Source of the DNA: Candidatus Daviesbacteria bacterium RIFCSPLOWO2_01_FULL_39_23 | GTDB taxonomy: Bacteria > Patescibacteriota > Microgenomatia > Daviesbacterales > UBA10151 | Direction of reading: 5' to 3' | NCBI GenBank assembly: GCA_001776935.1 | Contig: MFDN01000005.1 | Coordinates: 68,893 to 132,892, forward strand | Length of the DNA stretch: 64,000 nt | Shown: positions 19,012 to 33,433 of the stretch, piece after piece | Layout of the letters: every line of letters starts with the position of its first letter | How positions within the stretch are numbered: position 1 is the stretch's first letter | Made by a program: the position numbers and the translations under genes | The notes under the pieces: model-generated | The model's database searches: none | Told to the model about the DNA's origin: nothing | The model's input: the letters and a program-made list of their open reading frames with translations, nothing else

Positions 19012-20064
19012 ATGAATGATACGCAAGTAAACAACCGGCAGACTAAATTACTGGAATTTTTATTAGTAAACTCTCCGTCTTCAAGATCCAAAATCGAAAA
19101 CCTCCTGAAAGATGACAATGTTTCCCGAATAACCATTATTCGAGACTTAAATTATCTTATCAGCGTTGGTTTAATTGAACAGGTTGGGGGCGGTAAGTAT
19201 GTAAAATACCGTCTCAAGCCAGAGAAAGAATTACTTATTCCCATAGATCTAGAAAAATACTTCTCGACAGTAACCGATACTAGAAAAATCAAATATCCTA
19301 CATTTAATTTTAATTTGATTAATCGTTTGATGGGGTTATTTTCCAAAGACGAATTGGAGTTGTTTGAGACTGGAAAGGACAAATTGAAAAATAAATTTTC
19401 TTCCTTGGACAAAACTATATTAAAACGTGAACTGGAAAGGTTTACGATTGAACTTTCATGGAAATCTTCCCAAATAGAAGGCAACACCTATTCTCTCCTC
19501 GAAACTGAGGAGTTAATAAAAAATAAAAAGGAGGCAAAAGGACACGATAAAAGTGAGGCAATAATGATTCTCAATCACAAGGCAGCCTTTGACACGATTT
19601 TAGAAAAGAAAGAGAGCTTTAAAGAAATCTCGGTTGCGGACATTAGGAGGATTCACTCGGAACTGGTAAGAAAATTGAATATAAAATCTGGAATTAGGGA
19701 ATCTGCCGTGGGAATTACCGGAACTAAATATCGACCCCTAGATAATAAATGGCAAATAGAGGAAGCTCTAAATAAATTTGTGGTTCAGACAAAAAAAATC
19801 AAATCAGTACCAGAAAAAGCTTTAATTTTTCTAGCTGTTATTGCTTATTTGCAACCTTTTACTGACGGCAATAAAAGAACCTCCAGAATGATCAGCAATG
19901 CAGTTCTCCTTTCAAACGGCTATTATCCTCTTTCCTATAGGAGCGTAGACGAAGTTGAATATAAAAAGGCTTTAATTCTTTTTTATGAACAAAATAATCT
20001 TTACCATCTAAAAAGAATCTTTTTAGAACAACAACGTTTTGCGATCGAAAACTACTTTCTCTAA
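19012..20064 (+). CDS. Fic-family protein with N-terminal winged-HTH and a degenerate active-site motif
   Basis: 350 aa. N-terminal DeoR-like wHTH. Fic core reads QPFTDGNKRTSR (His to Gln, Gly to Lys), so it is probably catalytically altered. Confidence 0.7.
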   Translation: MNDTQVNNRQTKLLEFLLVNSPSSRSKIENLLKDDNVSRITIIRDLNYLISVGLIEQVGGGKYVKYRLKPEKELLIPIDLEKYFSTVTDTRKIKYPTFNFNLINRLMGLFSKDELELFETGKDKLKNKFSSLDKTILKRELERFTIELSWKSSQIEGNTYSLLETEELIKNKKEAKGHDKSEAIMILNHKAAFDTILEKKESFKEISVADIRRIHSELVRKLNIKSGIRESAVGITGTKYRPLDNKWQIEEALNKFVVQTKKIKSVPEKALIFLAVIAYLQPFTDGNKRTSRMISNAVLLSNGYYPLSYRSVDEVEYKKALILFYEQNNLYHLKRIFLEQQRFAIENYFL

Positions 20065-20350
20065 ACAGAAAGATCAACGACTGGCTCAAAACATTGGAGC
20101 GACATACAAGGAAGCTGACGACCAACTGAAACGCTACTACCTCAATTTGTTCTTTGGAGGTGGTGGTTTCTTTGTTAAGGATGGAAAGATTGTCAAAGCG
20201 AAGCTCTCAAACGACGTAAAACCCCTCATCAAAGATGGGTCAGTTCGAGTAAGAATGAATTGGCTCGAACGATGGTATGTTTTCCGAAGGACAGACTGGG
20301 TAAACTACCTGGAATATCCAGAATTTACAACTAAGGAAGTGACTAGGTTT

Positions 20351-21151
20351 TTACAAATCTAGCTTGCTAGCCTCTTTGTTTACTCGACCGACTTCGCCAA
20401 GATAGCGTTTTGAAAGATTGTTAAGCTGTTTTGCAATTCCTAGCTTCAGTAACTTATTAGATCTTTCCACAATCGTTAAAAAGAAATCAAATGAGGCAAT
20501 GAGGTCTTCCTCCACCCAGCTTTCACTCCGTCCAATGTCTACGGTATAACCTTTATCATGAGCCTTAACATAATCATTCATTGTTCTGACAGCCGAATGG
20601 GTGATATTGGATTGCAAATAATAAACGGTTTGATAAGCTCCCTCTCTACCAATCTCCTCCGCCATTTGCCTGATTGGTTTATCAGACCATCCCATTCTGC
20701 CATAATTATGCTTTTCCTGAACCAGCTTGGCATATTTTTCTACCTCTTCGATAGTAGTATCCCCAGGTTTGGGGTGAAGTTTCCTCTCCTCAAATAGCTT
20801 TGCGAAGGTAGGCACAGTTTTGGCGTAATCATACATTTTTTTCCTTATTATCGAATCATAATGGAAATATCTTAAAACTCTTTTGTTAGTAGGATCTTTC
20901 AGGATATAAAGGAGCGTAATTGAAAGATCAAAAAGAGAGCGGGTTAGTATTGCAGCGTCCTCACCATACCCCTGCGCACAAAGAAATAAAATAGCGCCAT
21001 GAGTTTTATAAGCCTTACCAAACATAAAGGTGCTAAGAGCAACTTTTGGAGTAATTTTGTGAAACTCCTTGTTCATAACACTATCAACTATCTTCCGAAG
21101 CTCTTCGTTAAAATCAAAGAGGTCTTTGTGTTTCTGATAGATTATATTTGG
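20351..21151 (-). CDS. Hypothetical protein, last gene of the candidate defence operon
   Basis: Probable start at MPNIIYQ (ATG overlapping the stop of the upstream gene); about 266 aa; no recognised motif. Confidence 0.45.
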   Translation of the reverse strand, partial: PNIIYQKHKDLFDFNEELRKIVDSVMNKEFHKITPKVALSTFMFGKAYKTHGAILFLCAQGYGEDAAILTRSLFDLSITLLYILKDPTNKRVLRYFHYDSIIRKKMYDYAKTVPTFAKLFEERKLHPKPGDTTIEEVEKYAKLVQEKHNYGRMGWSDKPIRQMAEEIGREGAYQTVYYLQSNITHSAVRTMNDYVKAHDKGYTVDIGRSESWVEEDLIASFDFFLTIVERSNKLLKLGIAKQLNNLSKRYLGEVGRVNKEASKLDL

Positions 21152-21158
21152 CATAGAT

Positions 21159-21833
21159 TTACCTTTCATCGAGGGCATAAGGACGAGTAATGGCACTAGG
21201 GGGAACTTGCCCACCACCTGATTGCGAAGAAGAAGTTGATGCACAGGTGTTTGTTGAAATAGGTTTTGGATAACCGCTTGCACCACTTGATCGTGTCGTG
21301 GAGGTTACAACCCTAATTGGAAGCTGATCGATCAAATCCTTATACCGAGAGTTTTTATTACCAATAGAATTTTCAGCTTGATTTACCCTTTGGGTATATT
21401 TATCGTCCTCTAATTCCTGCTTAAACTTGTCCAAAGATTCCAAAAAGTCATTAACTAGGGTTTCTGCATCTAGAACTGCCCCTTCGACTTCTTTATAGAC
21501 AGCTGGTTTCCCTCCATCTCTGCTTATACCACCCCTTGCGAAATATTCGTGTGCCAACCCATTTCTAAAAATATCCCTAAGAATTTCTACGGGGTAATCG
21601 CTTGGGTTGGTAAAACACTTGGAAATATACTCCTGGACACTTTGGGCGAAACTGGTGTAACGACCCAGAAGGAAGCTGCCCAAATATTCCATGTAGGCTA
21701 AAACACAAAGGGCTAAGGGGAAGTTAATATTCCCAATCGCAGCGGGCTGCGGTCTTATTCTGTCCCGCATATTTTCTAAGTCTTTTTTAATGTAACCAAA
21801 GACTACTGTGCCTAAGAATGTCTGCCTATCCAT
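21159..21833 (-). CDS. HEPN-like protein (Rx4H motif), third gene of the candidate defence operon
   Basis: 224 aa. FRNGLAHEY fits the HEPN R-x4-6-H motif; C-terminal S/T/G-rich tail. Confidence 0.4.
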   Translation of the reverse strand: MDRQTFLGTVVFGYIKKDLENMRDRIRPQPAAIGNINFPLALCVLAYMEYLGSFLLGRYTSFAQSVQEYISKCFTNPSDYPVEILRDIFRNGLAHEYFARGGISRDGGKPAVYKEVEGAVLDAETLVNDFLESLDKFKQELEDDKYTQRVNQAENSIGNKNSRYKDLIDQLPIRVVTSTTRSSGASGYPKPISTNTCASTSSSQSGGGQVPPSAITRPYALDER

Positions 21834-21835
21834 AT

Positions 21836-23629
21836 TTACTTTCCTTTTATCGAATTAAAGAACTTGCTGACCTCATCTGGTAATCTGCTTAAGTCAATAG
21901 ACTTTATTACTTCAAATTGAAAACCCTTATATGTTAGGTTTTTAACCTTACTCGACTCCGCTGATAGACGGTCATATAGTTTTTTGGTCATTACTTTTCC
22001 GTCAATTTCCATCAATTTAGTTGAGCTGTCCTTTTCTATCGCTTCAAGATGGTTTGTTACATCTTGTGCCTTGTATTGTCTTTCGTCTGAACTGGCGGCG
22101 TCTGCTATCGCTTCAATATCAAAAAGAAAAACATTCTCGAGCGTCTTGTATGGAGTTACTAAAACATTATTGCCAATCTGCCCCAGAACACCTTCGTCAT
22201 CTTTGTCAATTAAGGCTAAGATGTTCAGGGTAGAAGGTTGTTGGGTGAGAGTGCCGATAAATGTCCTAAAAGCATCACTTGTCTGGATTACTCCTGGTTT
22301 ACTCCCAGAACCAGGTTTATTGTCTGTTCCTGCAGGTATGAATACAACACAATTTTTTAGAGGATCTATCAACCTCTGGTAGACCTTAAAGTCCTCTAGA
22401 TGGTCTTTGGCATTTGGGATACCCTCAACATAAACAATCTTAGGGGCAAGAAAGGCTAAATCGAATCTTTTACCAAGAGAGTTGAGAAGCTCAACTCTAG
22501 TGGTCAAATTGTCAACCTTTTCAATAGACTTAGAGTCACTAGTAATCTGATAAACATTCTCGGTGTTAGCGGAAATAAAGTCTGAGGAATGAGTAGAGAC
22601 AAGACAGCTAAAATCCTTCGCTTTAAGAAAAACACCGTTCATAAATTCTGCTAATCTAGTAACATACTCTGGATGAAGGTGAATGTCTGGTTCGTCGATA
22701 AGCACTATCGGTTTGAACGCTTGGCGTTCCCATTGAATTAACATTGCAGCCAAACCGATTACCTGCCGTTCGCCTGAGCTGGCAAACTGGATTGGATAGC
22801 TTCTGTTTATTTTTTTATTAGTCATTCGGAATTTCATTTCCCCTTTCTCAGCTTGAATTTTGTCGAATGAAAGCTCTAGGGGATAAATGATCTCATTGAT
22901 TCTTGAAAGGGTATCTTCTAATTCGGGAAAGGCTACCTTTTGTTGAGAAAAGACTCTCCAAACTGCCATCATTGCTAATCGATTGAGTAGACTACCTAAT
23001 TGAATATTGCTTCTAGTGGTTCTTTGTCTTATGTCAAAATCTCCAGTAACAACCTCTGTCATTTCAACATCACGAGGCGCAGCTCCTAAAAAGGAAGTGC
23101 CTCCCTCGCCAATGTCTTGGAGGGGTTTAACAAACACGCCTAATACTTTATGCCTACCAAGTTCGGATAACCAAGAAGGAATGTCGTTTTGAGAACTGGC
23201 ACCTATGAACTTACGAGTTGATGGTTGCTGAGGAGAAAAGTCAGAAGGTATTGACAGTTCAACAGTAAAAAAATACCTTCCATTTTTCTTCTGAAGGTCG
23301 TTTTGTATCGTTTGCAAAACTGTTTCCCTTGAAGTAAAAGCATTAGGACTTTTTTCAACCAGTATTTCCGCTAGATGTCCAAGGTCGTCATCGCTTAACG
23401 AAACAGAGGCTCGCCACACCGCCTCTGCCCCCGTAATACCACTAACAACTGTCGTATCAATTTGATTTATGTCTACACTATTCAAAAGGAAATTAGCCAC
23501 TTCAAGTATTGTTGACTTGCCTGTCCCGTTCTGACCAGCAAGAACAATAAATCCAGTAAGTTCAGACGCCTTAACTTCAAAGTTCTCAAAACCTCTAAAA
23601 CCAGTAATTTTTATTTCTTCCACTCTCAT
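21836..23629 (-). CDS. OLD-family nuclease-like protein: ABC-type ATPase (AAA_15/21) fused to a TOPRIM-like C-terminal domain
   Basis: 597 aa. Walker A LAGQNGTGKST; Walker B / D-loop VLIDEPDIHLHP; C-terminal IVYVEGIPNAKDH and ALIDKDDEG (TOPRIM-like E and DxD). Confidence 0.65.
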   Translation of the reverse strand: MRVEEIKITGFRGFENFEVKASELTGFIVLAGQNGTGKSTILEVANFLLNSVDINQIDTTVVSGITGAEAVWRASVSLSDDDLGHLAEILVEKSPNAFTSRETVLQTIQNDLQKKNGRYFFTVELSIPSDFSPQQPSTRKFIGASSQNDIPSWLSELGRHKVLGVFVKPLQDIGEGGTSFLGAAPRDVEMTEVVTGDFDIRQRTTRSNIQLGSLLNRLAMMAVWRVFSQQKVAFPELEDTLSRINEIIYPLELSFDKIQAEKGEMKFRMTNKKINRSYPIQFASSGERQVIGLAAMLIQWERQAFKPIVLIDEPDIHLHPEYVTRLAEFMNGVFLKAKDFSCLVSTHSSDFISANTENVYQITSDSKSIEKVDNLTTRVELLNSLGKRFDLAFLAPKIVYVEGIPNAKDHLEDFKVYQRLIDPLKNCVVFIPAGTDNKPGSGSKPGVIQTSDAFRTFIGTLTQQPSTLNILALIDKDDEGVLGQIGNNVLVTPYKTLENVFLFDIEAIADAASSDERQYKAQDVTNHLEAIEKDSSTKLMEIDGKVMTKKLYDRLSAESSKVKNLTYKGFQFEVIKSIDLSRLPDEVSKFFNSIKGK

Positions 23630-24135
23630 ATTAAAAGCTCTCCAATTCGTTTTAATATTTTTCCTTCTGGGGGATAAGCAGAATAAGATGCTTTATCTAT
23701 CTCGAAAGTCTGCCCGTTTTGCTTTAAGACTAGGCGGGGCGTATCGCTGCGATTGTTGTTCCAAACATAACTGTTGCCAGTAAATAAATGATAATCAGCC
23801 CCGATGAAATCCTCTGGAGACAAACTTTCTAGGGGAATTTCACCGCCAGAATGAACCCGCACAATTCGCCCGACTCCAAGATTACCTGAAAATCCCATGA
23901 CTTTTTCCCATACCCCGTTTGGATAGGGAGGCGTATAGGCAACATGCTGGAGTTCAATACTGTTGAGAGAAAAAGACTCGTCACCAATGTTCTTAAAATC
24001 AACCCATTCGCCAGCTAGTTGAGAGAAAGGGACATAATTACCAAGGCGATCTCTGCCAGATGGGTTTGGTTTTACTTGGGTAACATTAAGCCGTTTCATA
24101 GTAATTTTAATCCTTTGTAATGTAGGACTTGACAT
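23626..24135 (-). CDS. Lamin-tail-domain (LTD)-like protein, first gene of the candidate defence operon
   Basis: 169 aa (start may be the internal MKRLNV). VKPNPSGRD...GEWVDFKNIGDESFSL resembles the LTD core (NPxGxD...EWIELxN). Overlaps the ATPase start by 4 nt. Confidence 0.4.
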   Translation of the reverse strand: MSSPTLQRIKITMKRLNVTQVKPNPSGRDRLGNYVPFSQLAGEWVDFKNIGDESFSLNSIELQHVAYTPPYPNGVWEKVMGFSGNLGVGRIVRVHSGGEIPLESLSPEDFIGADYHLFTGNSYVWNNNRSDTPRLVLKQNGQTFEIDKASYSAYPPEGKILKRIGELLI

Positions 24136-24166
24136 TACTGTAAAATTATCATAAAGTTATCATACT
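24136..24166. promoter_or_regulatory. Divergent promoter/operator region between the defence operon and the lexA-like gene
   Basis: 31-bp intergenic segment containing TACTGT and the direct repeat TTATCATA-AAG-TTATCATA; candidate repressor operator. Confidence 0.3.
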
Positions 24167-24766
24167 ATGCCAGTAAAAGTCAAGCCCATTACAGGTAGAC
24201 AAAAAGAGGCGCTCGATTTTATCAATTCCTTTATCCAAGATAATGGATACGCTCCCTCTCTTCGTGAGTTAGCAGCCTTTCTGAAAACCGACAACATTAG
24301 CACGGCTCATTACTTTGTAAAAGAACTTGAAAAGAAGGGTTACCTCAAACGAGATTACTATAAAAACAGAGGGATCACTCCTATTCTTCAAAAACAAACA
24401 GTTCCACTCTTGGGTTATATTGCCGCTGGTGCGCCAATAGAACCAATTGAAGACTCGGAGCCAATACAAGTGCCAACTAACATTAAATTGGCTACAAATC
24501 AGTCTTATTACGCTCTCAAAGTCAAGGGTGATAGCATGATAGATATGGGAATTCTGGACAAAGATATTGTCCTTATTAAGCATCAAATGACAGCAGATGT
24601 CGGCGATGTGGTTGTGGGAATTACAGAAGACGGAGCAACTCTAAAAATTCTAGGAAGAAAAAATGGAAAAACTATCCTTGAACCACGCAACATAAATTAT
24701 AAATCAATAATTCCTAGACAACTTGAGGTTCGAGGAGTTTTTGTAGGTTTAATAAGGGCTGAATAA
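24167..24766 (+). CDS. lexA: LexA-like autocleavable repressor (HTH plus S24 peptidase)
   Basis: 199 aa. N-terminal wHTH (RQKEALDFI...PSLRELAAFL), Ala-Gly cleavage site (IAAGAP), catalytic GDSM and a conserved Lys. Confidence 0.8.
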   Translation: MPVKVKPITGRQKEALDFINSFIQDNGYAPSLRELAAFLKTDNISTAHYFVKELEKKGYLKRDYYKNRGITPILQKQTVPLLGYIAAGAPIEPIEDSEPIQVPTNIKLATNQSYYALKVKGDSMIDMGILDKDIVLIKHQMTADVGDVVVGITEDGATLKILGRKNGKTILEPRNINYKSIIPRQLEVRGVFVGLIRAE

Positions 24767-24802
24767 TAAATTCAAAAATTATAGAATAAGGATAAGATTA
24801 AT

Positions 24803-25588
24803 ATGAATTCAATTAATGACTATCTCAATAAAATAATTTGCGGTGACTGCATTGAAGTCATGCAGAAGATGCCCAATAAAAGCATCGATCTAGCTGTTAC
24901 ATCTCCTCCTTACAATCTTAAAAATTCTACTGGTAATGGTATGAAAGACGGTAGAGGTGGTAAGTGGGCAAACGCAGCTCTCCAGAATGGTTATAGCCAT
25001 CATGATGACTGTATGCCTCACGAAAAATATGTGGCTTGGCAAAGAAAGTGCTTAGAAGAAATGATGAGATTGTTAAAAGACGATGGAGCAATTTTTTACA
25101 ATCACAAATGGCGTGTCCAAAACGGACTGCTTCAAGATAGACAAGACATTGTTTCGGGCTTTCCTGTACGACAAATAATAATTTGGCATCGCAACGGAGG
25201 TATTAATTTTAATAAAGGTTATTTTTTACCCACCTATGAGGTGATTTATCTAATTGCAAAAAAGAACTTCAAGCTAGCACCAAAGGCAAACGCCCTCGGA
25301 GATGTGTGGGACATGGGACAAGACTTAAACAACCCTCACCCCGCACCATTCCCTGTTGAATTGATTGAAAGGATTATCGGATCAACGACTGCCGAAATTG
25401 TTCTAGACCCATTCATGGGTTCAGGTACAACAGCAGTTGCTGCAAAAAATCTCGGCAGAAAGTATATCGGAATTGATGTCTCTCCTGAATATTGCCAGAT
25501 GGCTGAAGAAAGGATCAAAAAGGGACATTTCAATGGCAAGAAACAACAGGATCTTCTTTCTTTGTTTCCCCAAGACTGTTCCGTGTGA
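24803..25588 (+). CDS. DNA methyltransferase, N4/N6 class (PF01555-like), probably m4C
   Basis: 261 aa. DLAVTSPPYNL (SPPY catalytic motif) and DPFMGSGTT AdoMet motif. Confidence 0.85.
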   Translation: MNSINDYLNKIICGDCIEVMQKMPNKSIDLAVTSPPYNLKNSTGNGMKDGRGGKWANAALQNGYSHHDDCMPHEKYVAWQRKCLEEMMRLLKDDGAIFYNHKWRVQNGLLQDRQDIVSGFPVRQIIIWHRNGGINFNKGYFLPTYEVIYLIAKKNFKLAPKANALGDVWDMGQDLNNPHPAPFPVELIERIIGSTTAEIVLDPFMGSGTTAVAAKNLGRKYIGIDVSPEYCQMAEERIKKGHFNGKKQQDLLSLFPQDCSV

Positions 25589-25606
25589 GATAATTAGCTT
25601 AAAGAT

Positions 25607-26398
25607 ATGCAATTATATACAAAAGACGAACTAATTAAGAAACTGAAACAACTTGCCGAAATGGGTTGGATACCAAATGGGAGATTTGGCAACCACGGAG
25701 GAATCGGCAACACTCTTGAGGATTTTTTGGGTATTACAGAAAATAATTTACCAATACCTAATGCTGCCGAGTGGGAGCTAAAAACACAACGGGCAAACAC
25801 ATCGTCGCTAACAACTCTTTTTCATATCGAGCCATCACCAAGAGCCGTAGGTTTTGTTCCAAAAGTATTGTTGCCACTCTATGGGTGGTCGCACCAAGAG
25901 GCAGGAAAACTTTACAAAGATGGCGAAATGAGTTTCAGGCAGACAATCCACGGACTATCCCACAGCGACAGGGGTTTTATCGTTAAAATCGATCGAGCTG
26001 CCAAAAAAGTGCTTATTTCCTTTGATGCAACCAAAGTAGCAGAAAGACATTCTGAATGGCTTCGGGGTGTTGAACAAAAAATGGGGTTAGGGGAACTCAA
26101 TCCACAACCTTACTGGGGATTCGACGATCTAAAACATAAAGCAGGAACTAAACTTCTTAATTGTTTCTATGTGCAAGCGGAAGTAAAAAAGGAAGGTGAA
26201 AAAGAGTTTTACTGGTATAAAAAGGCGCAAATGCTACAAAAGTTCAAATTTGATGGATTACTGGAGGCACTTGAGAAAGGCGCTCTCCTAGTGGATTTTG
26301 ATGCAAGGACAGGTCACAACCATGGCACAAAATTCAGGCTTAGACAAAATCACCTACCTATGCTCTACGAAAAAGTGACCACCGTTGTGAATTCTTAA
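25607..26398 (+). CDS. Type II restriction endonuclease of the MvaI/BcnI family
   Basis: 263 aa. N-terminal ...AAEWELKTQRANTSSLTTLFH and C-terminal LLVDFDARTGHNHGTKFRLRQNH align by eye with conserved BcnI/MvaI blocks (GEFELK...LTLFH; LVMDLCID...GPHLRI). Confidence 0.65.
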   Translation: MQLYTKDELIKKLKQLAEMGWIPNGRFGNHGGIGNTLEDFLGITENNLPIPNAAEWELKTQRANTSSLTTLFHIEPSPRAVGFVPKVLLPLYGWSHQEAGKLYKDGEMSFRQTIHGLSHSDRGFIVKIDRAAKKVLISFDATKVAERHSEWLRGVEQKMGLGELNPQPYWGFDDLKHKAGTKLLNCFYVQAEVKKEGEKEFYWYKKAQMLQKFKFDGLLEALEKGALLVDFDARTGHNHGTKFRLRQNHLPMLYEKVTTVVNS

Positions 26399-26538
26399 CT
26401 CCCTTAAACAGTTTCCCCCATTTCTAACCGCCTGTGTTGACTTGTGTGGGGCTTTCGTGCCTGGGATGGCATAGTTTCACCTCTGTTTGACTTCAGACCC
26501 CTTGTTTGGCATAGTTGCTGGTTACATAAGGTGATAAC

Positions 26539-26824
26539 TATGAATATGAACCAAAATAGACAGTGTCAGCATAATTTAAGGGCAAAAGCCTTTGGCGAAG
26601 CATTAAAAGAAGGCATCAGGGAAGATGTGATGATGCGGTCTTGTTTTCAGTCAGATTTTTCATTAGACAAACATGAGCGTAAATCCAGGCAAAAAATAGA
26701 AAAACTTCTAAACGGAGATCGCAAGAAGGAAATATCAGAGTGGAAGAAAAACAGTAAGACAAGAGCCGAAGCATCCAGACAAGCATTTATAAGAGGGCTG
26801 AAATCGGGAGACAAAACAGAGTAA
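26539..26824 (+). CDS. Hypothetical basic protein
   Basis: Probable ATG at 26539 within ORF 26444-26824; upstream TTGACT and direct repeats TGGCATAGTT x2. Confidence 0.3.
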
Positions 26825-27008: not shown

Positions 27009-27740
27009 CTAATTTTCAAACAGCGGCACGGTATTCCAATACTGAATCTGTTTGTTGCCATCAACGGTAATGCGGATGGTCGGATAAGAGTAAGGTCTAC
27101 CCTCTAAGCCTTCGGGCAATTTATAACCCTTGTCTTCCCAGAACCACTGATGTAATTCGCCGCCGTATTTTCCAGAATAAATAAACTGTTCTTTGATTTG
27201 ATCAAAGTTCTTTACTCCTCTGACAAGGTAGCCAAAGGCAACGGCTTCAGCTTCCGTCTTGGTAATCTTCGGCATAGTATTTGAACTTGTGTCTGAGCAA
27301 ATAACACCGTTGCTCTTGTAGCCCTCGATTTCACTGGGTTTGAGTCCCGCTATGACAACTGCCACTAAGGAATGGTTTCTGGAATCAACATGATACTCAT
27401 AAACCGAGCATTGTCCATTAAGTAGTTCCTTTTGGTGGTAAATATCTACTTGGCGTGTCCAACCCTCAACTGCCTCCATATTTTCTCCACCCTCCATCTG
27501 GGTGACTTTGCCAACCCTGAAATATACGGGGAAAGGCACATCCGATTTAACAAAGGCTAACTCCAAAGCAGGTTCTGCCATGAAACTGCGAATGGCTGTC
27601 TCATCTTGAGCGGTATTATCAACTTCTTGTTTGGGTAGTAAAGCAGGAACATAGTTGTTTTTCTTTAACCAGACAAAACCAGTCCCCAAGCCAACCAAGA
27701 TAAGTAAGGTAACGATTATTTTTGTCTTCATATTTTTCAC
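27009..27740 (-). CDS. Secreted/membrane-anchored hypothetical protein
   Basis: 243 aa with an N-terminal signal/TM segment. Confidence 0.4.
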   Translation of the reverse strand: MKNMKTKIIVTLLILVGLGTGFVWLKKNNYVPALLPKQEVDNTAQDETAIRSFMAEPALELAFVKSDVPFPVYFRVGKVTQMEGGENMEAVEGWTRQVDIYHQKELLNGQCSVYEYHVDSRNHSLVAVVIAGLKPSEIEGYKSNGVICSDTSSNTMPKITKTEAEAVAFGYLVRGVKNFDQIKEQFIYSGKYGGELHQWFWEDKGYKLPEGLEGRPYSYPTIRITVDGNKQIQYWNTVPLFEN

Positions 27741-27745
27741 CCCCT

Positions 27746-28414
27746 TTACGGATAGGGCGGATAATCAGTCCAGCCCTCTTCTCCTTGAATAAAATAACGA
27801 CTATCGGTGGTATTACAAACCCTGGGATGCCCAGTGCGCCTAGAAGCCTCCTCGCTGGTGACTTGACCACCATCATGCCCGATAGCTTTAAGGCAGTCAT
27901 CATAGTTATTTACCCAGCTATACTTTGCCTGCATTTGCTCTTTCCAGGTTGGAGCAACATCTCCTCCAGGTAAAAGTGCTGGTGTAAAGGGGTTATATTC
28001 CTCACAACCATGATCACAATCCCTGACGCTGGGTATGCCTTCGTTTAGAAGAATTCTGGCTATCTCCCAAGCGCTCATTGACTGGGAAATATCGTAGGCA
28101 GTCTCGGTATCAATGGTGTTATTGCCAACTTTAATCGCTCCAACCTTACCAGGCGTATTGTCCTTGGTGTGTTCAAGAGCGTATTTAAGAGCTTCTTCGT
28201 CTTTGACGAATCCATAATAAGCAAGATTGCCAGTAACCGCTATAAGGGTATTTTGTTTGTCAACTCGGAACTTAACCACAGGAGCAACTTTGCGAGGCGC
28301 TGCAAATTTATTCTGGGACGACTGATACCAATAGAAACCGCCAACAACAAACAGGAGAACAACAAGCAGGAAAGGAATAGTAATCCTAATCTTATTTTTC
28401 ATCTTTATTGTCAT
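27746..28414 (-). CDS. Secreted/membrane-anchored hypothetical protein
   Basis: 222 aa with an N-terminal TM segment; Cys-containing extracytoplasmic domain. Confidence 0.4.
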   Translation of the reverse strand: MTIKMKNKIRITIPFLLVVLLFVVGGFYWYQSSQNKFAAPRKVAPVVKFRVDKQNTLIAVTGNLAYYGFVKDEEALKYALEHTKDNTPGKVGAIKVGNNTIDTETAYDISQSMSAWEIARILLNEGIPSVRDCDHGCEEYNPFTPALLPGGDVAPTWKEQMQAKYSWVNNYDDCLKAIGHDGGQVTSEEASRRTGHPRVCNTTDSRYFIQGEEGWTDYPPYP

Positions 28415-28614
28415 ATTTTGATATAGTTCGGTATGTTAACTTGCTGTCGAGGAGATTGTCAAATCAAACAGAAAGCTCCCCGCCAGCGATAGCCTTTCGA
28501 CTACCCATACCCCTTTCGGGATACAACCTTCGCAGATGCTCTGACTAGGAGCTTTTATCTGCGAAGGTTTTGATGCCATGCCCTTGCGGGTTTAGGCGGT
28601 TAAATTGTTAAATT

Positions 28615-28806
28615 TTATGGCTTATCTCTGCCGTGCATAAGTTTCAAAATATCTTCTTTTTTATAACGACGGTCTTTGCGTTGACCAAAGCGGACAGACT
28701 GTAAAATGCCTTTTTTATCCCATTGACGAAGAGTATTAGGATGAACACTAAGCAATTTGCTTGCCGCTGATAATGTTAAAAGCTGTGGAACGGTTTGGTC
28801 AGTCAT
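28615..28806 (-). CDS. Excisionase/MerR-type HTH DNA-binding protein
   Basis: 63 aa. LLTLSAASKLLSVHPNTLRQWDKKGIL matches the excisionase-family HTH pattern. Confidence 0.55.
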   Translation of the reverse strand: MTDQTVPQLLTLSAASKLLSVHPNTLRQWDKKGILQSVRFGQRKDRRYKKEDILKLMHGRDKP

Positions 28807-28827: not shown

Positions 28828-29799
28828 TTGTTAACATTAGACTACAATAAGCAACAGTTTATTGCAACTATGACGATGAAAATTGACGAGGAATACAAAA
28901 CCTACACAGCTTTTGTTACGAAACTCGCTGTTATAAAGCAACTCTTGCTTAATCAGGAAGAACCTTCTTATATCTTGGAACGCTACACTCAGAAACACTT
29001 ACTAAGTGAGGAGCAGTTTCAAGGGATACAATCTTTGGTTAACAAAGACAAGAACGAGTTAATAAGACTCTTGGACAAAAGTATAAAAGATTTCATGGCT
29101 GGTAGACATCTCGATAAAATTACAAATCCAGAGCTAATAAAATACTCCTATAAATACCAAAAAGATAACTTTATCAACAAAATCGCAGATTATATAAAAC
29201 AATATGGACTAAAAATACCACTCCATTTCGAGGAGGACGCTTCTCTCTTCGGAGAGAACACAACCAGGATAACCTTCATAGAAACTTTAATAGCCTTAGA
29301 GTCGGAAGGATTTATCTCGATTGTTAGTATTAGAGAAGGGACTTCAAAACCACACGAAATCATTACCGCAGACGCTGGCGTTTGGTCTTTGACCAAAGAT
29401 GAAAACAGAAGTGGTTTTACCGTTTACCCAGTTCCTATTGCTACTATACAGCTTACAAGAAAGTTAATTAGCCTTATCGAGCCCCGACTCTCATATACCC
29501 CTCACAAACTGTCCTTCAAAGGCAAAGTAATTTTTATTCCAGAAGGCGACCAAGATACACTCTGTAGGGTAATTTTGCGAAATAAAAATGCAATGAAAAG
29601 AGAGTGGTCATGGGATGAAGTGCTAGAAAAATCAGGAGAAAGAAATATCGACACAAATATGTGGCGCAGGGTTTATAACGCAGGGCGTGAGATCAATAAA
29701 AAAGTGGCAATAGAAACAACAATTAAGGATCTGCTCGATGTTAGAAAGCAGACAATCTCAGTAAACACAAAATATCTGCCATTTCCCCCGAACAAGTAG
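28828..29799 (+). CDS. Hypothetical protein
   Basis: 323-aa ORF in the island; no motif recognised. Confidence 0.35.
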   Translation: MLTLDYNKQQFIATMTMKIDEEYKTYTAFVTKLAVIKQLLLNQEEPSYILERYTQKHLLSEEQFQGIQSLVNKDKNELIRLLDKSIKDFMAGRHLDKITNPELIKYSYKYQKDNFINKIADYIKQYGLKIPLHFEEDASLFGENTTRITFIETLIALESEGFISIVSIREGTSKPHEIITADAGVWSLTKDENRSGFTVYPVPIATIQLTRKLISLIEPRLSYTPHKLSFKGKVIFIPEGDQDTLCRVILRNKNAMKREWSWDEVLEKSGERNIDTNMWRRVYNAGREINKKVAIETTIKDLLDVRKQTISVNTKYLPFPPNK

Positions 29800-29865
29800 T
29801 TAGATAACTTTATATAACCCCTTAGGAGCTAGGCTTATGTTAATAGCCTAGCTTTTTTTATAACT

Positions 29866-30117
29866 ATGAACCAGCAATTAAACGAGAATTACTATCAGAC
29901 CAGCGATCTATCTCTCGCCACAACCCTCTCTTTATTTGCGCCGATAGAAGAAATTGATCGTTCTACTAATCCCCGCAAAGCACTGTTTATCTTCCGCAAA
30001 ACTCCTGAACTGGAGAAGCTAATTGACCAGTATTTCCGAAACGAAATCAAAATCTCGCCTCAGACCTATTTTAATCAGTTGCGTGTCGTGAAGGCACGGC
30101 TCTATGCCAACGAATAA
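29866..30117 (+). CDS. Hypothetical small protein
   Basis: 83-aa ORF. Confidence 0.3.
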   Translation: MNQQLNENYYQTSDLSLATTLSLFAPIEEIDRSTNPRKALFIFRKTPELEKLIDQYFRNEIKISPQTYFNQLRVVKARLYANE

Positions 30118-30264
30118 CTATGATAGATAAAAATTTACTATTGGAACTAAAACAAATCTTAAAAGAAGACTTTGATCTGGAATTAAGCCTCCAGGAAGTT
30201 ACAGAGATAGGCACAACCCTACTGGCTTTTACCGAGACTTTATTAAAAATCGAGTCAACAAACA

Positions 30265-30528
30265 GTGGAGGAAACAGTTATGACGCCCATAGATAAATTT
30301 GTAAGCATTCTAAAACCGCTTTTATTAGCAGGGTGCGGTATTGAATTAACCACAGAAGAAGCGTCGATTGTGGCAAATACGCTGACAGATTTCTTTGAGG
30401 CATTGGCATTAATCGAACACAAAAAGGATTGTCCTAAGAAAGAAAAGCTTGAAGAATACTTGAGACAAAAATGGGGCGGTAAAAGAAAAATTAATATGAC
30501 CATAAATAACCATGATGATCTCAATTAA
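30265..30528 (+). CDS. Hypothetical small protein
   Basis: 87-aa ORF. Confidence 0.3.
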   Translation: MEETVMTPIDKFVSILKPLLLAGCGIELTTEEASIVANTLTDFFEALALIEHKKDCPKKEKLEEYLRQKWGGKRKINMTINNHDDLN

Positions 30529-30868
30529 CGATATAACTATCAAAATTAAACTCTTGAAATCAGAAACCATGCTAGCCCAGGCAACCGTAATACTTTTTGG
30601 TGTCTGGAAAGAACATGGCTGGAAGGTGTTGAGATCTGATCGACCACATCCAAAACATCAAGATTCCCTATGGTTTCAAGCGCCAAGCTATCGACTAGGT
30701 AGTGGTTGGCACGAAATCGTCTTTATCGATGATCTTGATCTATACGAGGCTGTGATAGAGAAGATTTACAACGCCTATTGCCTTGCCAAAAGCAAACAAC
30801 CCGATCAGGGAGAAAAAGAGGAAGAAATCAATCCAGAGGATGTCGATTTAGAAAGCATTAACTTATGA
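30512..30868 (+). CDS. Hypothetical protein
   Basis: 118-aa ORF. Confidence 0.3.
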   Translation: MMISINDITIKIKLLKSETMLAQATVILFGVWKEHGWKVLRSDRPHPKHQDSLWFQAPSYRLGSGWHEIVFIDDLDLYEAVIEKIYNAYCLAKSKQPDQGEKEEEINPEDVDLESINL

Positions 30869-30973
30869 AAAGACATAGTAACTATATAGGGACTTATAAA
30901 GGGAATTTTATAGTAACAATTTTTCCCTTTAAGAGGAAATGTATTTATATAAGTTACTATAGCTAATTTAACT

Positions 30974-31546
30974 ATGAATATCGTTACATCAAAGATACCA
31001 GGAGAACGAGCAAAACAATACGCCGCTTGGCTTCTTTATTGCGAAGTAGGCAGTTTAGAAAAAACGCTCAGGATGTGGGAGCGAATTTCAGCTCAAGATG
31101 ATACCGAAATGATACCGTTTTTTGGGGTTTTCCTGGGTAAACCCGCTGGTTTGGCAACACTCAAACGCTGGTCAGTCAAATATCGCTGGCAGGAACGAAC
31201 TGAGTTGAAAAACACAGAAGATCTGGAAGACATGAGGTTCAAGTTTAAGAGGATTAAGCAAACAAGAGCATATAAAATTGCCATTTTATTAGACAGGGTT
31301 CTTGATAGATTGGGTCGGCAGTTGGATCAAGGCATGTATGTCAGCACAAGAGATCTTTACACGCTTTGGAAGATGCACCGAGTTGAAGAGGGACTGAGTA
31401 TCGGAAACTACCAAGTTATCACTTACCAAGAACCGCCAGCAGAACCAAAAACCCCAGAAGAAATAGAGTTAGACAAGAAGATACAGGAAATAGTCAGTAG
31501 GTATCACAAGAACAACGACAAGGAGGAGCAACCTACCATTACTTGA
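30974..31546 (+). CDS. Hypothetical protein
   Basis: 190-aa ORF upstream of the serine recombinase. Confidence 0.35.
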   Translation: MNIVTSKIPGERAKQYAAWLLYCEVGSLEKTLRMWERISAQDDTEMIPFFGVFLGKPAGLATLKRWSVKYRWQERTELKNTEDLEDMRFKFKRIKQTRAYKIAILLDRVLDRLGRQLDQGMYVSTRDLYTLWKMHRVEEGLSIGNYQVITYQEPPAEPKTPEEIELDKKIQEIVSRYHKNNDKEEQPTIT

Positions 31547-31592: not shown

Positions 31593-33275
31593 ATGAAAAC
31601 TGCCATATTCTGCCGAGTAAGCAGTAAAGAACAAGAAGAAACAGGCTACTCCCTGCCAGCTCAGGAGAAGTTCTTGAGAGAGTATGCTGACAAACAGGGC
31701 TTGGAAGTCGCCAAAGTCTTCGCCGTCTCCGAGTCCGCAGCAGGCAAGGTTCAGAGAAAAATCTTCATCGAGATGGTCGCCTATGTCCGCAAGCATACCA
31801 TTCCCACGATTATCGTGGAAACAACTGACCGTTTAACCAGGAATTTCTCTGATGTCCCCACCATTGACTTATGGATTACCGAGAACGAAGAACACCAAGT
31901 CCACCTGGCAAAAGAAGGCTGTATCCTCCACAACTCCTCCCGCTCTCACGAATGGTTTATGTGGCGGGTCAAAGTGGCCACCGCCGAGTATTACGTCCGT
32001 CTTCTTTCAGAGAATGTGAAGAAGGGGCAGAAAGAAAAACTAGCCCAAGGCTGGATCCCCACCAAACCACCACTTGGGTACAAAACAGTGGGTGAAACCG
32101 GCCACAAAATCCATGTCGTTGATGAAGGTGCTTCTAAGCTAGTAATCAAGATGTTTGAGCTCTACGCCTCCGGCGATTATTCCATCAAAAAGCTTGCAAC
32201 CACTATGTATGAAGAAGGCATGCGCTCACCGCAGGGCAACAGACTGGCGATCAGCAGGACCCACTCCCTGCTGCGTGATCCTTTCTATATGGGTAAAATA
32301 AGGTGGAACAATGAGATCAGCGAAGGCAAACATCAACCGTTAATCAGTAAAGAACTATTTGATAAGGTCCAAAATATGCTTGTGAGCAAAACCACCCCTA
32401 AATATATGAAGCACGACTACCTCTTCAAAGGATTAATCCGCTGTGCAGGCTGTGACGGACTGATTACCTGGGAACTACATCGGGGTCATCACTACGGACA
32501 TTGCAACCACTATCACGACTGTACCCAAGAAACGTGGGTCAAGGAACCGGAAACCGAAGAACAACTCTTAGACGGTTTTGATAGCCTCCGCATCAAAAAC
32601 CAGCGGGTAACTGAGTGGCTCAAGAAAGCTCTCAAAGAAAGCCACCAGGACGAAGTTCAATACCACAACAGCACCGTCGGCGATCTGGAAACCCGCTATG
32701 AAGCTGTCAGCAGAAGAATGGACAAGTTGTACGATGACAAGCTCGATGAGAAAATTACTCAGGAGTTTTATAACCGCAAGTTCAAGCAATACTCCAATGA
32801 AAAAGACGAACTAACCGAAACCATCAAACGCCACTCCATCGCCAGCACTGGCTACATAAACTTTGGTATTAATCTCTATGATCTCTCGCAACGAGCCAAA
32901 AACATCTACCTAACCGCCAAAAATAAAGATATGTTGGACGAACAACGAGCACTGATTAGGCTGGTCTTCGCCAAGTTAACGCTCAATGAAGGCAAACTTA
33001 GCTGGGAATACTCCAAGGCATTTAAAATGCTTTCAGAAGCAGTAGCCCAAACCAATTGTTCTAAAGTGGAAAATTTAGAGGATTTTGAAAAAGGAACTTT
33101 CGAACATGCAGAATTGCCCGACAATTCAACACAAAAGGACGCTTTATTGCCTCTGCGTCCCATCTGGCTCCCCCGCGTGGATTCGAACCACGAACCTCGA
33201 TCTTACAGAATTCCACTTGTTACCAAATGGTCTGGACTATCTAATCATCCCAAGATGCGGGAGCCGGGTATATAG
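31593..33275 (+). CDS. Large serine recombinase (resolvase catalytic domain, recombinase domain, zinc ribbon)
   Basis: 560 aa. N-terminal AIFCRVSSKEQ (catalytic Ser); zinc ribbon CAGCDGL...HCNHYHDC. The last ~37 codons run antisense over the tRNA-Asn 3' exon and intron. Confidence 0.85.
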   Translation: MKTAIFCRVSSKEQEETGYSLPAQEKFLREYADKQGLEVAKVFAVSESAAGKVQRKIFIEMVAYVRKHTIPTIIVETTDRLTRNFSDVPTIDLWITENEEHQVHLAKEGCILHNSSRSHEWFMWRVKVATAEYYVRLLSENVKKGQKEKLAQGWIPTKPPLGYKTVGETGHKIHVVDEGASKLVIKMFELYASGDYSIKKLATTMYEEGMRSPQGNRLAISRTHSLLRDPFYMGKIRWNNEISEGKHQPLISKELFDKVQNMLVSKTTPKYMKHDYLFKGLIRCAGCDGLITWELHRGHHYGHCNHYHDCTQETWVKEPETEEQLLDGFDSLRIKNQRVTEWLKKALKESHQDEVQYHNSTVGDLETRYEAVSRRMDKLYDDKLDEKITQEFYNRKFKQYSNEKDELTETIKRHSIASTGYINFGINLYDLSQRAKNIYLTAKNKDMLDEQRALIRLVFAKLTLNEGKLSWEYSKAFKMLSEAVAQTNCSKVENLEDFEKGTFEHAELPDNSTQKDALLPLRPIWLPRVDSNHEPRSYRIPLVTKWSGLSNHPKMREPGI

Positions 33276-33433
33276 TCTCTACACATTTACCCCGCCACAG
33301 CGGGGATTTAGCTCGGGATTACCCTTCGATTACTCTCAGGGCTTCCCCGAATTAGCCCGATTTTCATCTCGGCATTACTGCCGGGAGCTGCCTATTTTGA
33401 CAGGATCTCGCTCTACCGTTGAGCTACAGGGGA
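33165..33433 (-). tRNA. tRNA-Asn (GUU) interrupted by a group I intron; exons 33433-33400 and 33205-33165
   Basis: 5' exon UCCCCUGUAGCUCAACGGUAGAGCGAGAUCCUGU resembles the E. coli tRNA-Asn 5' half. 3' exon UAAGAUCGAGGUUCGUGGUUCGAAUCCACGCGGGGGAGCCA. Joined anticodon loop CUGUUAA. Acceptor pairs with a G-U wobble; CCA encoded. Confidence 0.7.
33206..33399 (-). ncRNA. Group I intron (~194 nt) in the tRNA-Asn anticodon loop, between nt 35 and 36
   Basis: 5' exon ends in U and the intron ends in G (omega-G). The core contains GUGUAGAGACUAUAUACCCGG and UAGAUAGUCCAGACC, which resemble conserved group I P7/P3 and S-element segments recalled from the Azoarcus tRNA-Ile intron (GUGUAGAGACUAGACGG, AGAUAGUCC). 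Confidence 0.6.

What the first reader, a model, noticed from the sequence alone, without database searches (positions are those of the whole stretch)
31593..33433. Large serine recombinase whose 3' end runs antisense through the tRNA-Asn 3' exon and intron; likely island boundary
The recombinase ORF continues about 110 nt into the tRNA gene on the opposite strand. Together with an excisionase-like HTH gene (28615-28806) and phage/plasmid-like hypotheticals (28828-31546), this looks like the integration module of an element inserted at or into tRNA-Asn. Serine integrases only rarely target tRNA genes, and here the overlap includes the group I intron, which is unusual.
Basis: partly seen in the sequence, partly recalled or inferred. 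Interest (0 to 1): 0.5.

Follow-up and report, generated by a model that had tools for sequence, protein, structure and literature searches.

The report
Serine-integrase island inserted at tRNA-Asn
The recombinase gene marks the right end of a 12.9-kb mobile island inserted at the last bases of a tRNA-Asn gene, and it belongs to a widespread, apparently undescribed group of serine integrases in CPR (Patescibacteria) bacteria whose recombination site lies inside their own gene, so insertion swaps the protein's tail for tRNA-antisense sequence.

Summary
ORF 31593-33275 (+) is a large serine recombinase (LSR). Its last 111 nt run antisense through the 3' exon (33165-33205) and 70 nt of the group I intron of tRNA-Asn(GUU) (33165-33433, -).

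The island spans about 20261-33170 (12.9 kb). It has no tRNA direct repeat, only a 6-bp core (TGGCTC) at each end.

The displaced native 3' end of the recombinase gene (31 codons plus stop) sits at the far junction (20267-20362). So attP lies inside the recombinase gene, and integration replaces a conserved, structured C-terminal tail with tRNA-antisense residues.

In 80 related genome loci, at least 61 recombinase genes abut a tRNA 3' end in the same way (40 Asn). Five carry the intact tail. A related contig joins the window's left arm directly to a tRNA-Asn 3' end, showing an unoccupied site.

The site geometry fits the published LSR rule of an outer motif shifted 5 bp between attB and attP. 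The intron overlap is incidental.

This is a new variant of a known kind: a serine-recombinase counterpart of phage Mx8 IntP. Mobility of this copy is inferred, not shown.

The parts
20027..20262 (+). Remnant of the 3' end (about 75 codons) of a different LSR gene from a second clade. It forms the arm to the left of the left junction and is probably left over from an older element at the same tRNA.
   Evidence: phmmer against 1.84 billion proteins matches the C-termini of 498-511-aa Resolvase+Recombinase proteins (P0151, P0185, P0190, P0198). A homologous ORF occurs in L004.
20261..20266 (.). Left junction core TGGCTC. The inferred crossover dinucleotide is TC at 20265-20266.
   Evidence: The sequence matches the right junction. 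The alignment with the unoccupied site L093 stops at 20266.
20267..20362 (+). Displaced native 3' end of the recombinase gene (P' arm plus tail): ERWYVFRRTDWVNYLEYPEFTTKEVTRFLQI followed by a stop. It is in frame with the core.
   Evidence: An HMM of native tails hits this ORF at E=1.4e-10, the only significant hit in the window.
20351..26824 (.). Variable cargo: DUF5677 protein, a 224-aa ORF, an AriA/PtuA/OLD-like ABC ATPase (21836-23629 -), a weak lamin-tail-domain (LTD)-like protein (below Pfam's cut-off), a LexA-like S24 repressor (24167-24766 +), a type II methyltransferase (24803-25588 +), an MvaI/BcnI restriction endonuclease (25607-26398 +) and a 126-aa ORF.
   Evidence: Pfam and PADLOC. 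GC content rises from 0.34 to 0.40 at about 20000.
27009..28414 (-). Two membrane-anchored proteins (243 and 222 aa) that travel with the element core.
   Evidence: They are 77-90% identical in nucleotide sequence in L001, L017 and L018. The recombinases of L017 and L018 are only about 55% identical to the window's and target tRNA-Gln.
28488..28598 (-). LOOT RNA (Rfam RF03000), directly downstream of the HTH gene. It is a recurrent component of these elements.
   Evidence: Rfam scores 78.7 bits against a gathering score of 46.4. My own covariance model finds 26 copies in 86 loci, 25 of them inside the elements upstream of the recombinase.
28615..28806 (-). MerR/HTH_17 excisionase-like protein (63 aa). 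It is a candidate directionality factor or regulator.
   Evidence: Pfam MerR_1 5.5e-9 and HTH_17 2.2e-8. PHROG excisionase families.
28828..31546 (+). Conserved element core operon: a 323-aa ORF, DUF5659 (29866-30117), three small ORFs, and a 190-aa small-terminase-like/HTH protein (30974-31546).
   Evidence: Pfam and PHROGs. The same gene order occurs in L001.
31593..33275 (+). Large serine recombinase ORF as it now stands (560 aa). Residues 1-526 (31593-33170) come from the element. Residues 527-560 are antisense tRNA and intron.
   Evidence: A homologue's AlphaFold2 model matches the SPbeta, Bxb1, phiC31 and LI integrases.
33165..33170 (.). Right junction core TGGCTC. This is the reverse complement of tRNA positions 71-76 (G71 A72 G73 C74 C75 A76).
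   Evidence: Alignments with L001, L004 and L015 stop at 33170/33171.
33165..33433 (-). tRNA-Asn(GUU). The 5' exon is 33433-33400, the group I intron is 33399-33206 (194 nt), and the 3' exon is 33205-33165 including CCA. This is the host target gene, left intact by the insertion.
   Evidence: The tRNA-Asn, rpoD and dnaG neighbourhood is conserved in many relatives.

Best explanation
The window holds a 12.9-kb integrative element (about 20261-33170) inserted by its own large serine recombinase at the extreme 3' end of the host tRNA-Asn(GUU) gene.

The element's attachment site (attP) lies inside the 3' end of the recombinase gene, centred on codon Leu526 (CTC). The P arm is formed by codons ...R-P-I-W-L. 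The P' arm is formed by the first codons of a conserved 31-residue tail.

Recombination with the tRNA end (core TGGCTC, tRNA positions 71-76; inferred crossover dinucleotide TC) leaves the tRNA body in place. The element supplies the discriminator base and the CCA. The last 31 codons of the recombinase gene are carried to the far end of the element (20267-20362). The integrated gene therefore reads on into antisense tRNA and intron until a chance stop.

Excision would rebuild a 557-aa protein. The left arm of the far junction is itself the remnant of another LSR gene, so the site appears to have been used repeatedly (tandem accretion).

What is shown: the anatomy, the family-wide pattern, the displaced tails and the unoccupied site.

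What is inferred: the exact crossover dinucleotide, the roles of the arms, present-day mobility, and any regulatory meaning of the tail swap.
For: (1) More than 100 homologues (52-90% identity) are collinear up to RPIWL and then diverge. Some continue into tRNA-antisense tails (WLPR.DSN..P) and others into a conserved non-tRNA tail (W[DE]xFRTxxWxxE..PE....LL). P0003 and P0004 are identical in the last 57 residues before that point.

(2) Of 80 genome loci, 61 have an opposite-strand tRNA 3' end at the recombinase 3' end: 40 Asn, 7 Thr, 7 Gln, 3 Asp, 2 Ser, 1 Leu and 1 Glu. Five have the intact tail. At least 4 of the 10 unclear cases are of the tRNA type but cut at contig ends.

(3) An HMM of the tails has one significant hit in the window, at 20270-20359 on the + strand (E=1.4e-10). 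It is in frame with a TGGCTC core identical to that at 33165-33170. The same displaced tail lies 3.5-10 kb upstream of the tRNA-abutting recombinase in at least 10 other loci.

(4) Homology breaks exactly at the cores. L001, L004 and L015 match the window up to 33170/33171. L093 matches up to 20266, where the same 36-nt left arm is joined directly to a tRNA-Asn 3' end.

(5) Site geometry. The P (reverse complement) and P' arm profiles correlate only at zero shift about the TC dinucleotide (0.38 against at most 0.28 elsewhere). The tRNA T-loop motif ATTCGAAC in B' matches P' best at +5 bp (0.617; next best 0.455). This is the attB/attP zinc-ribbon-motif rule of Rutherford et al. 2013 (PMC3783163).

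(6) GC content steps up at about 20000. The cargo is defence-type. The cargo is mosaic between relatives. A 99.9-100% identical partial copy lies in another genome bin (L013).

(7) The AlphaFold2 model of a native-tail homologue has the LSR architecture. It also has a separate three-helix C-terminal module (residues 516-551, pLDDT about 78-82) after a disordered linker. Foldseek hits SPbeta, Bxb1, phiC31 and LI integrases at E 1e-18 to 1e-11.
Against: No excised circle or empty site was found for this exact strain. Every displayed place, out of 23+23 contigs read for this population, shows the element integrated.

The exact predicted attP 22-mer was absent from viral contigs. In metagenomes it hit only related elements.

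The left arm is not plain host DNA but a remnant of another LSR gene. The junction is therefore formally P(remnant)-P', and it is unclear whether it can serve as attL for excision.

The window's own P' arm departs from the family consensus in both motifs.

No contig showed terminal overlap indicating a circle.

The unoccupied site L093 comes from a related genome, not the same one, and the contig ends 26 nt into the tRNA.
Confidence: 0.85

Rival explanations
1. This is a fossil or domesticated arrangement. An element did insert here once, but the tail-less recombinase is now inactive or has been co-opted, and the island is fixed in the chromosome. The overlap persists only by inheritance.
For: Every displayed place from the contigs read for this population carries the integrated form. 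The left junction arm is a remnant of another LSR gene rather than a clean host arm. Decayed copies exist in relatives, for example L091 and the L004 fragment at 17638-17752.
Against: The recombinase ORF is intact and has every residue that is invariant in the family, including R8 and S10. The displaced tail is still an open, in-frame reading frame. Close relatives occur in tRNA-joined and tail-joined states. A 100% identical partial copy sits in a different context.
Confidence: 0.2
2. The tRNA-Asn belongs to the element, as a phage- or plasmid-borne tRNA. The overlap would then be an internal feature of the element and not a junction.
For: The recombinase and the tRNA are adjacent in most relatives.
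Against: Homology between elements stops exactly at the core, before the tRNA. tRNA sequences vary with the host while the P arms are conserved. The tRNA-Asn, rpoD and dnaG synteny continues to the right in many genomes. The same left arm is joined to a tRNA with no element between them in L093. Native-tail forms lack the tRNA.
Confidence: 0.03
3. The overlap is a chance read-through or an ORF-calling artefact with no bearing on mobility, and the region to the left is ordinary chromosome.
For: The length of the overlap (111 nt) is indeed set by the chance position of a stop codon. No long direct repeat exists.
Against: The junction position is the same in at least 61 of 80 loci. The displaced tail scores E=1.4e-10. 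GC content shifts. Mosaic cargo is shared with elements that target other tRNAs.
Confidence: 0.02

Closest known systems
Phage-type large serine integrases (phiC31, Bxb1, A118/LI, SPbeta SprA, TP901-1)
   Same: They share the domain order: a resolvase catalytic domain, a recombinase domain, and a zinc ribbon with a coiled-coil insert. The att sites are short, with a minimal shared core and no long direct repeats. The outer DNA motif is shifted 5 bp between attB and attP.
   Different: Here attP lies inside the integrase's own 3' coding region, so integration changes the protein. The target is the 3' end of a tRNA gene, and this holds across a large clade. Mageeney et al. 2020 (PMC7192596) state that use of t(m)RNA genes by serine integrases had not been reported, and they found only 14 of 297 predicted cases. 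From memory, the characterised LSRs have attP outside the int reading frame.
Myxococcus phage Mx8 IntP (tyrosine integrase)
   Same: attP lies within the int coding sequence, and integration creates a recombinant gene with a new 3' end (PMC6070905; PMC4383910). From memory, its attB sites overlap the 3' ends of tRNA-Asp genes.
   Different: Mx8 IntP is a tyrosine recombinase with an unrelated fold and chemistry. The present protein is a serine recombinase. This is a functional analogy, not family membership.
SSV-type archaeal integrases (fuselloviruses)
   Same: The integrase reading frame extends across attP, and the target is a tRNA gene (PMC4383910).
   Different: They are tyrosine recombinases. 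From memory, their int gene is split into two large parts on integration, whereas here only the last 31 codons are detached.
Classical tyrosine-integrase tRNA islands (Islander type)
   Same: An island lies next to a tRNA 3' end with the integrase gene at the tRNA-proximal end. The tRNA is kept functional.
   Different: Those islands duplicate a tRNA 3' segment as a direct repeat at the far end. That was tested here and is absent.
phiRSM-type small serine recombinase integrases
   Same: They are serine-family enzymes acting as site-specific integrases of integrative elements (mentioned in PMC7192596). From memory, they use a tRNA-Ser 3' end.
   Different: They lack the recombinase and zinc-ribbon domains, and attP is not within the gene.

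Membership tests
Large serine recombinase (LSR / serine integrase) | N-terminal resolvase-type catalytic domain with the nucleophilic serine and the arginine/aspartate cluster | tested here: met
   Pfam Resolvase 1.3e-18 over residues 4-153. R8, S10, D79, R80 and R83 are invariant in 38- and 42-sequence alignments.
Large serine recombinase (LSR / serine integrase) | Recombinase domain (PF07508) after the long alpha-E helix | tested here: met
   Pfam Recombinase 3.1e-16 over residues 181-263. The homologue model has helix 119-151 followed by a mixed domain.
Large serine recombinase (LSR / serine integrase) | Zinc-ribbon domain with four cysteines and an inserted coiled coil | tested here: met
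   The Pfam Zn_ribbon_recom match is only 18.9 bits, below the 25.3 cut-off. However, C284, C287, C304 and C310 are invariant. The model has a long helical hairpin at 352-441. Full-length Foldseek matches to SPbeta, Bxb1, phiC31 and LI integrases have E values of 1e-18 to 1e-11.
Large serine recombinase (LSR / serine integrase) | Short att sites with a small common core and no long direct repeats flanking the element | tested here: met
   A 6-bp core TGGCTC lies at 20261-20266 and 33165-33170. A GCTC core is shared by the Asn-targeting relatives. There is no repeat of the tRNA 3' end.
Large serine recombinase (LSR / serine integrase) | attP and attB half-sites share an inner motif in register, while the outer (zinc-ribbon) motif lies 5 bp nearer the centre in attB | tested here: met
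   GGA sits at positions 9-11 of all three arms. The TTCGAAC motif is at position 12 in B' and position 17 in P'. The profile match peaks at +5 (0.617 against 0.455 for the next best). The rule is from PMC3783163. This is correlative evidence, not a binding test.
Large serine recombinase (LSR / serine integrase) | Catalyses attP x attB integration, with excision needing a directionality factor | not testable with these tools
   There is only comparative evidence: an unoccupied site and attP-type and integrated forms among close relatives. The candidate factor is the HTH_17 protein at 28615-28806.
Mx8 IntP-type arrangement (attP inside int, C-terminus altered on integration) | attP within the integrase coding sequence, so that integration gives the gene a new 3' end | tested here: met
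.
Mx8 IntP-type arrangement (attP inside int, C-terminus altered on integration) | The enzyme is a tyrosine recombinase | tested here: not met
   The protein is a serine recombinase. It works like Mx8 IntP but is not a member of that family.
Classical tRNA-targeting genomic island (tyrosine integrase type) | A displaced tRNA 3' fragment forms a direct repeat at the far end of the island | tested here: not met
   The 32-nt tRNA 3' end occurs only once with up to 3 mismatches. Repeat and BLAST searches of the window find no copy.
Group I intron in a tRNA anticodon loop | Match to the group I covariance model, a 5' exon ending in U, an intron ending in G, and exons that join into a canonical tRNA | tested here: met
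   RF00028 scores 55.1 bits against a gathering score of 50. The spliced product is a 75-nt tRNA-Asn(GUU). Self-splicing was not tested.

The most novel reading that the evidence does not exclude
A large clade of serine integrases in CPR/Patescibacteria, not described in the literature I could search, uses the acceptor/T-arm end of tRNA genes as attB and keeps attP inside its own reading frame. Integration and excision would then reversibly remove and restore a structured three-helix C-terminal module. That toggle would act as a built-in switch of integrase activity or directionality, in the way proposed for Mx8 IntP/IntX. The element-borne LOOT RNA and the HTH protein would be its regulators. 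The tRNA T-loop would be the zinc-ribbon recognition motif, which would explain how one enzyme family can hop between Asn, Gln, Asp, Thr and Ser tRNAs.
Probability: 0.3. Interest if true: 0.8.

Novelty: new variant of a known kind. Interest (0 to 1): 0.62.

Why it matters
Serine integrases are the main tools for inserting large DNA into genomes, and textbook accounts say they do not use tRNA genes. A 2020 survey (PMC7192596) called such use unreported and in need of proof.

This family has more than 550 members in species-level genomes, and its members sit on tRNA 3' ends with a readable attP/attB logic. That offers three things:
- natural landing sites that are conserved across hosts;
- a case in which protein sequence and DNA site are encoded by the same bases (the RPIW and WDD codons form the inverted repeat of attP);
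- a possible self-regulating integrase whose C-terminus depends on whether the element is integrated.

It also gives a genomic context to the orphan LOOT RNA, and it shows how small defence islands move among CPR bacteria.

Tried and rejected
(1) Direct repeat of the tRNA 3' end. I tried repeat finder, a pattern search with 3 mismatches, and BLAST with word size 7. No copy was found. A 21-nt match between intron 33321-33341 and 8487-8507 lies in a region with no RNA family and is probably chance.

(2) First guess for the left end, at about 28474 next to LOOT, where GCTCCCCGC resembles the right junction. I rejected it because that stretch is conserved inside the elements (L001, L017, L018) and the tail HMM places the junction at 20266.

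(3) Idea that the non-tRNA tails are antisense LOOT. I rejected it because the tails form a conserved peptide and LOOT is internal to the element.

(4) Empty site in the same strain. Exact-protein look-ups of both flanking genes returned only the integrated form.

(5) Exact predicted attP 22-mer. There were no viral hits. The four metagenome hits are related elements, not this one, so this was not an independent confirmation.

(6) Circular contigs. No terminal overlaps were found in 24 whole-contig loci.

(7) Left flank as a remnant of the same LSR family. The family profile does not hit it. An exhaustive phmmer search shows it belongs to a second LSR clade.

(8) The 231-aa ORF upstream of the tRNA as a LAGLIDADG homing endonuclease. 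This is not supported; there are only weak N-terminal HTH matches.

(9) Viral origin. Only 6 weak relatives were found in 2.9 million IMG/VR contigs.
Full report
**The observation**

The ORF at 31593-33275 (+) encodes a 560-aa protein. It matches the Pfam Resolvase and Recombinase domains and, weakly, the recombinase zinc ribbon.

On the opposite strand, Rfam finds a group I intron at 33213-33409. Reading the sequence shows tRNA halves on either side of it. Splicing after the U at 33400 and after the G at 33206 gives a canonical 75-nt tRNA-Asn(GUU) with an encoded CCA ending at 33165.

ARAGORN misses the gene without intron mode. In intron mode it misplaces the intron.

The ORF overlaps the tRNA gene by 111 nt: 41 nt of 3' exon and 70 nt of intron. 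Its last 36 residues (WLPRVDSNHEPRSY...) are simply the antisense reading of the tRNA.

**A family-wide pattern**

More than 1600 database proteins match the recombinase. The best 120 (52-90% identity) are collinear up to a conserved RPIWL and then diverge.
- Many continue as WLPR.DSN..P, which is the antisense of an acceptor stem and T arm.
- Others continue with a conserved, non-tRNA peptide: W[DE]xFRTxxWxxE..PE....LL.
- P0003 and P0004 are identical in the last 57 residues before RPIWL and differ completely after it.

A scan of one genome per species gave 554 relatives, and I examined the best 80 loci.
- In 61, a tRNA gene on the opposite strand has its 3' end at the recombinase 3' end: 40 Asn, 7 Thr, 7 Gln, 3 Asp, 2 Ser, 1 Leu and 1 Glu.
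- Five carry the non-tRNA tail contiguously.
- Four are cut by contig ends.
- Of the remaining ten, at least four are visibly of the tRNA type but truncated.

The length of the overlap varies from 13 to 151 nt, median 42, in the 42 loci where it could be measured cleanly. The long overlap here, and the fact that it reaches the intron, are therefore accidents of stop-codon position.

**The far end of the element**

No repeat of the tRNA 3' end exists in the window. An HMM built from the non-tRNA tails has a single significant hit in the six-frame translation of the window. It lies at 20270-20359 on the + strand (E=1.4e-10).

The sequence there reads ...AAT TGG CTC GAA CGA TGG..., translated as NWLERWYVFRRTDWVNYLEYPEFTTKEVTRFLQI followed by a stop. 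The right junction reads ...ATC TGG CTC CCC CGC....

Both junctions share TGGCTC in the same codon phase. Joining the recombinase to this tail would give a 557-aa protein, the same length as the tail-bearing relative in L004.

GC content rises from about 0.34 to 0.40 at about 20000.

The same displaced tail lies 3.5-10 kb upstream of the tRNA-abutting recombinase in at least ten other loci. Each has a short core (GCTC for the Asn-targeting elements) shared by both junctions.

**Breakpoints**

- L001, L004 and L015 align with the window's recombinase gene up to 33170/33171 and then diverge.
- L093, a 2-kb contig from another sample, aligns with the window from 20079 to 20266. There the same 36-nt left arm is joined directly to CGCGACTAGGATTCGAACCTAGAACC. 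That 26-nt stretch also occurs exactly in the tRNA-Asn(GTT) gene called in L029.

L093 is an unoccupied site with respect to the 12.9-kb element, although it comes from a related genome and not the same one.

**The left arm**

The 75 codons to the left of the left junction (20027-20262) are not ordinary host DNA. An exhaustive phmmer search matches them to the C-termini of 498-511-aa Resolvase+Recombinase proteins of a second clade. Members of that clade likewise end either in tRNA antisense or in the same kind of tail.

The junction is therefore formally a remnant P arm joined to the present element's P' arm. This suggests successive insertions at the same tRNA. L004 shows such a tandem series outright: tail, element A, recombinase plus tail, element B, recombinase fragment plus tail.

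**Site geometry**

I aligned 40 attR and 14 P' arms on the core.
- The reverse complement of the P arm (GCaAgataGGAcga) and the P' arm (GC.cgatgGGACGAtTTtcGAAcg) correlate only at zero shift about the TC of GCTC (0.38 against at most 0.28). attP is therefore an imperfect palindrome centred on TC.
- The conserved peptides RPIW and WDD are encoded by its two inverted-repeat arms.
- The tRNA arm shares GGA at positions 9-11. Its T-loop motif ATTCGAAC matches the P' arm best when shifted outward by 5 bp (0.617; next best 0.455).

This is the relation that Rutherford et al. (PMC3783163) established for the zinc-ribbon motif in attB and attP.

With TC as the crossover, the tRNA keeps positions 1-71/72 from the host and receives the discriminator and CCA from the element. 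The gene therefore stays intact. These assignments are inferences from sequence.

**The protein**

The catalytic residues (R8, S10, D79, R80, R83) and four zinc-ribbon cysteines are invariant.

An AlphaFold2 model of a tail-bearing homologue (P0108, mean pLDDT 81) has these parts:
- the catalytic domain;
- the long alpha-E helix;
- the recombinase domain;
- a zinc ribbon with a helical hairpin at 352-441;
- a disordered linker at 496-513;
- a separate three-helix C-terminal module at 516-551 (pLDDT about 78-82).

The att core falls in the first helix of that module, so integration removes most of it.

Foldseek matches the SPbeta, Bxb1, phiC31 and LI integrases over the full length (E values 1e-18 to 1e-11).

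The tail is conserved well beyond the roughly 25 bp that an attP half-site could occupy, which argues for a protein-level function. What that function is remains open.

**The element**

The conserved core (27009-33170) holds:
- two membrane proteins;
- a LOOT RNA;
- a 63-aa MerR/HTH_17 excisionase-like protein;
- a 323-aa ORF;
- DUF5659;
- small ORFs;
- a 190-aa small-terminase-like protein;
- the recombinase.

The variable part next to the P' arm (20351-26824) holds:
- a DUF5677 protein;
- an AriA/PtuA/OLD-like ATPase;
- a LexA-like repressor;
- a type II restriction-modification pair.

Relatives carry different cargo (L001, L004).

L017 and L018 have recombinases only about 55% identical to the window's and target tRNA-Gln. 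Yet they share the left core module at 77-89% nucleotide identity.

L013, a contig binned with a different genome, carries a 99.9-100% identical copy of 28576-32597 with a different left part.

Only six weak relatives occur in IMG/VR, and no structural or conjugation genes were seen. The element is best described as a small integrative island of unknown transfer mode.

**Limits**

All displayed places from the contigs read for this population show the integrated form.

The predicted attP 22-mer hit only related elements, and no circular contigs were found. Mobility of this particular copy is therefore inferred from comparison, not shown.

**Literature**

- Mageeney et al. 2020 (PMC7192596) found t(m)RNA usage in 14 of 297 serine-integrase islands. 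[quoted passage not shown]
- Searches combining serine integrase or recombinase with tRNA, Patescibacteria or the candidate phyla radiation found no description of this family.
- The nearest functional precedent is phage Mx8, whose attP lies within int so that integration gives the gene a new 3' end (PMC6070905, PMC4383910). Mx8 IntP, however, is a tyrosine recombinase.

**Verdict**

It is a new variant of a known kind.

Noticed in passing
window 28488-28598 (-); also L001, L005, L009, L011, L012, L013, L017-L019, L026, L029, L037 and others: The orphan LOOT RNA motif (Rfam RF03000) is a recurrent component of these serine-integrase elements. A covariance model built from 8 copies finds 26 hits in 86 loci (1.33 Mb). 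In 25 of them the hit lies inside the element, 1.7-7.5 kb upstream of the recombinase, and 23 of 26 are on the strand opposite to the recombinase. In the window it follows the HTH_17 gene directly. The stems show clear compensatory changes. The main text of the discovery paper does not discuss it.
   Followed up: partly
window 33437-34132 (-): A 231-aa ORF ends 4 nt before the 5' end of the intron-containing tRNA-Asn. It has only weak N-terminal HTH matches. A LAGLIDADG-like stretch (IAGITLYAGEG) is not supported by Pfam, PHROGs or PDB searches. A homologue lies in the same place in L011, which also has an intron in tRNA-Asn. A free-standing homing endonuclease is possible but unproven.
   Followed up: partly
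L013 7030-11005 (LBSX01000016.1, Candidatus Magasanikbacteria GW2011_GWC2_37_14): A contig assigned to a different genome carries a 99.9-100% identical copy of window 28576-32597. To the left of a breakpoint inside the LOOT RNA the sequence is unrelated, and the contig ends inside the recombinase gene. This could be recent transfer, a mosaic element, or a binning or assembly effect.
   Followed up: partly
L004 1069-21273: L004 holds a tandem series of elements and remnants on one chromosome. In order: a displaced tail, element A with an intact recombinase plus native tail (10001-11674), element B with a 1001-aa ATPase and a 542-aa methyltransferase, a 115-nt recombinase 3' fragment plus tail (17638-17850), and then a second-clade remnant plus a short tail (20971-21273).
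   Followed up: partly
window 17940-20064: Two divergent Fic/DOC genes, and PIN/MazE genes further left, lie just outside the left junction in lower-GC DNA. In L090 a Fic-like gene is also flanked by tail remnants. The Fic region may therefore be cargo of an older, decayed element at the same tRNA.
   Followed up: no
window 33165-33433 (-); L006, L011, L044, L056, L080: Group I introns interrupt tRNA-Asn after anticodon position 35 in several of these genomes. Other targeted tRNAs (Thr, Leu, Glu, Met) also carry long introns. ARAGORN's intron mode misassigns the window's tRNA as Gln(CUG).
   Followed up: partly
window 20039-20362 (+) and 31593-33275 (+): Public gene calls for this population list a 107-aa ORF and a 560-aa recombinase (L082, L084). 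Both are junction chimeras. The first is an LSR remnant plus the displaced tail. The second is the recombinase plus antisense tRNA. Automatic annotation therefore hides the true 557-aa product.
   Followed up: yes
window 8487-8507 and 33321-33341: A 20/21-nt match links the tRNA intron to a stretch just downstream of the minus-strand ORF at 8502-9197, overlapping its stop codon. No RNA family is found there, so the match is probably chance.
   Followed up: yes
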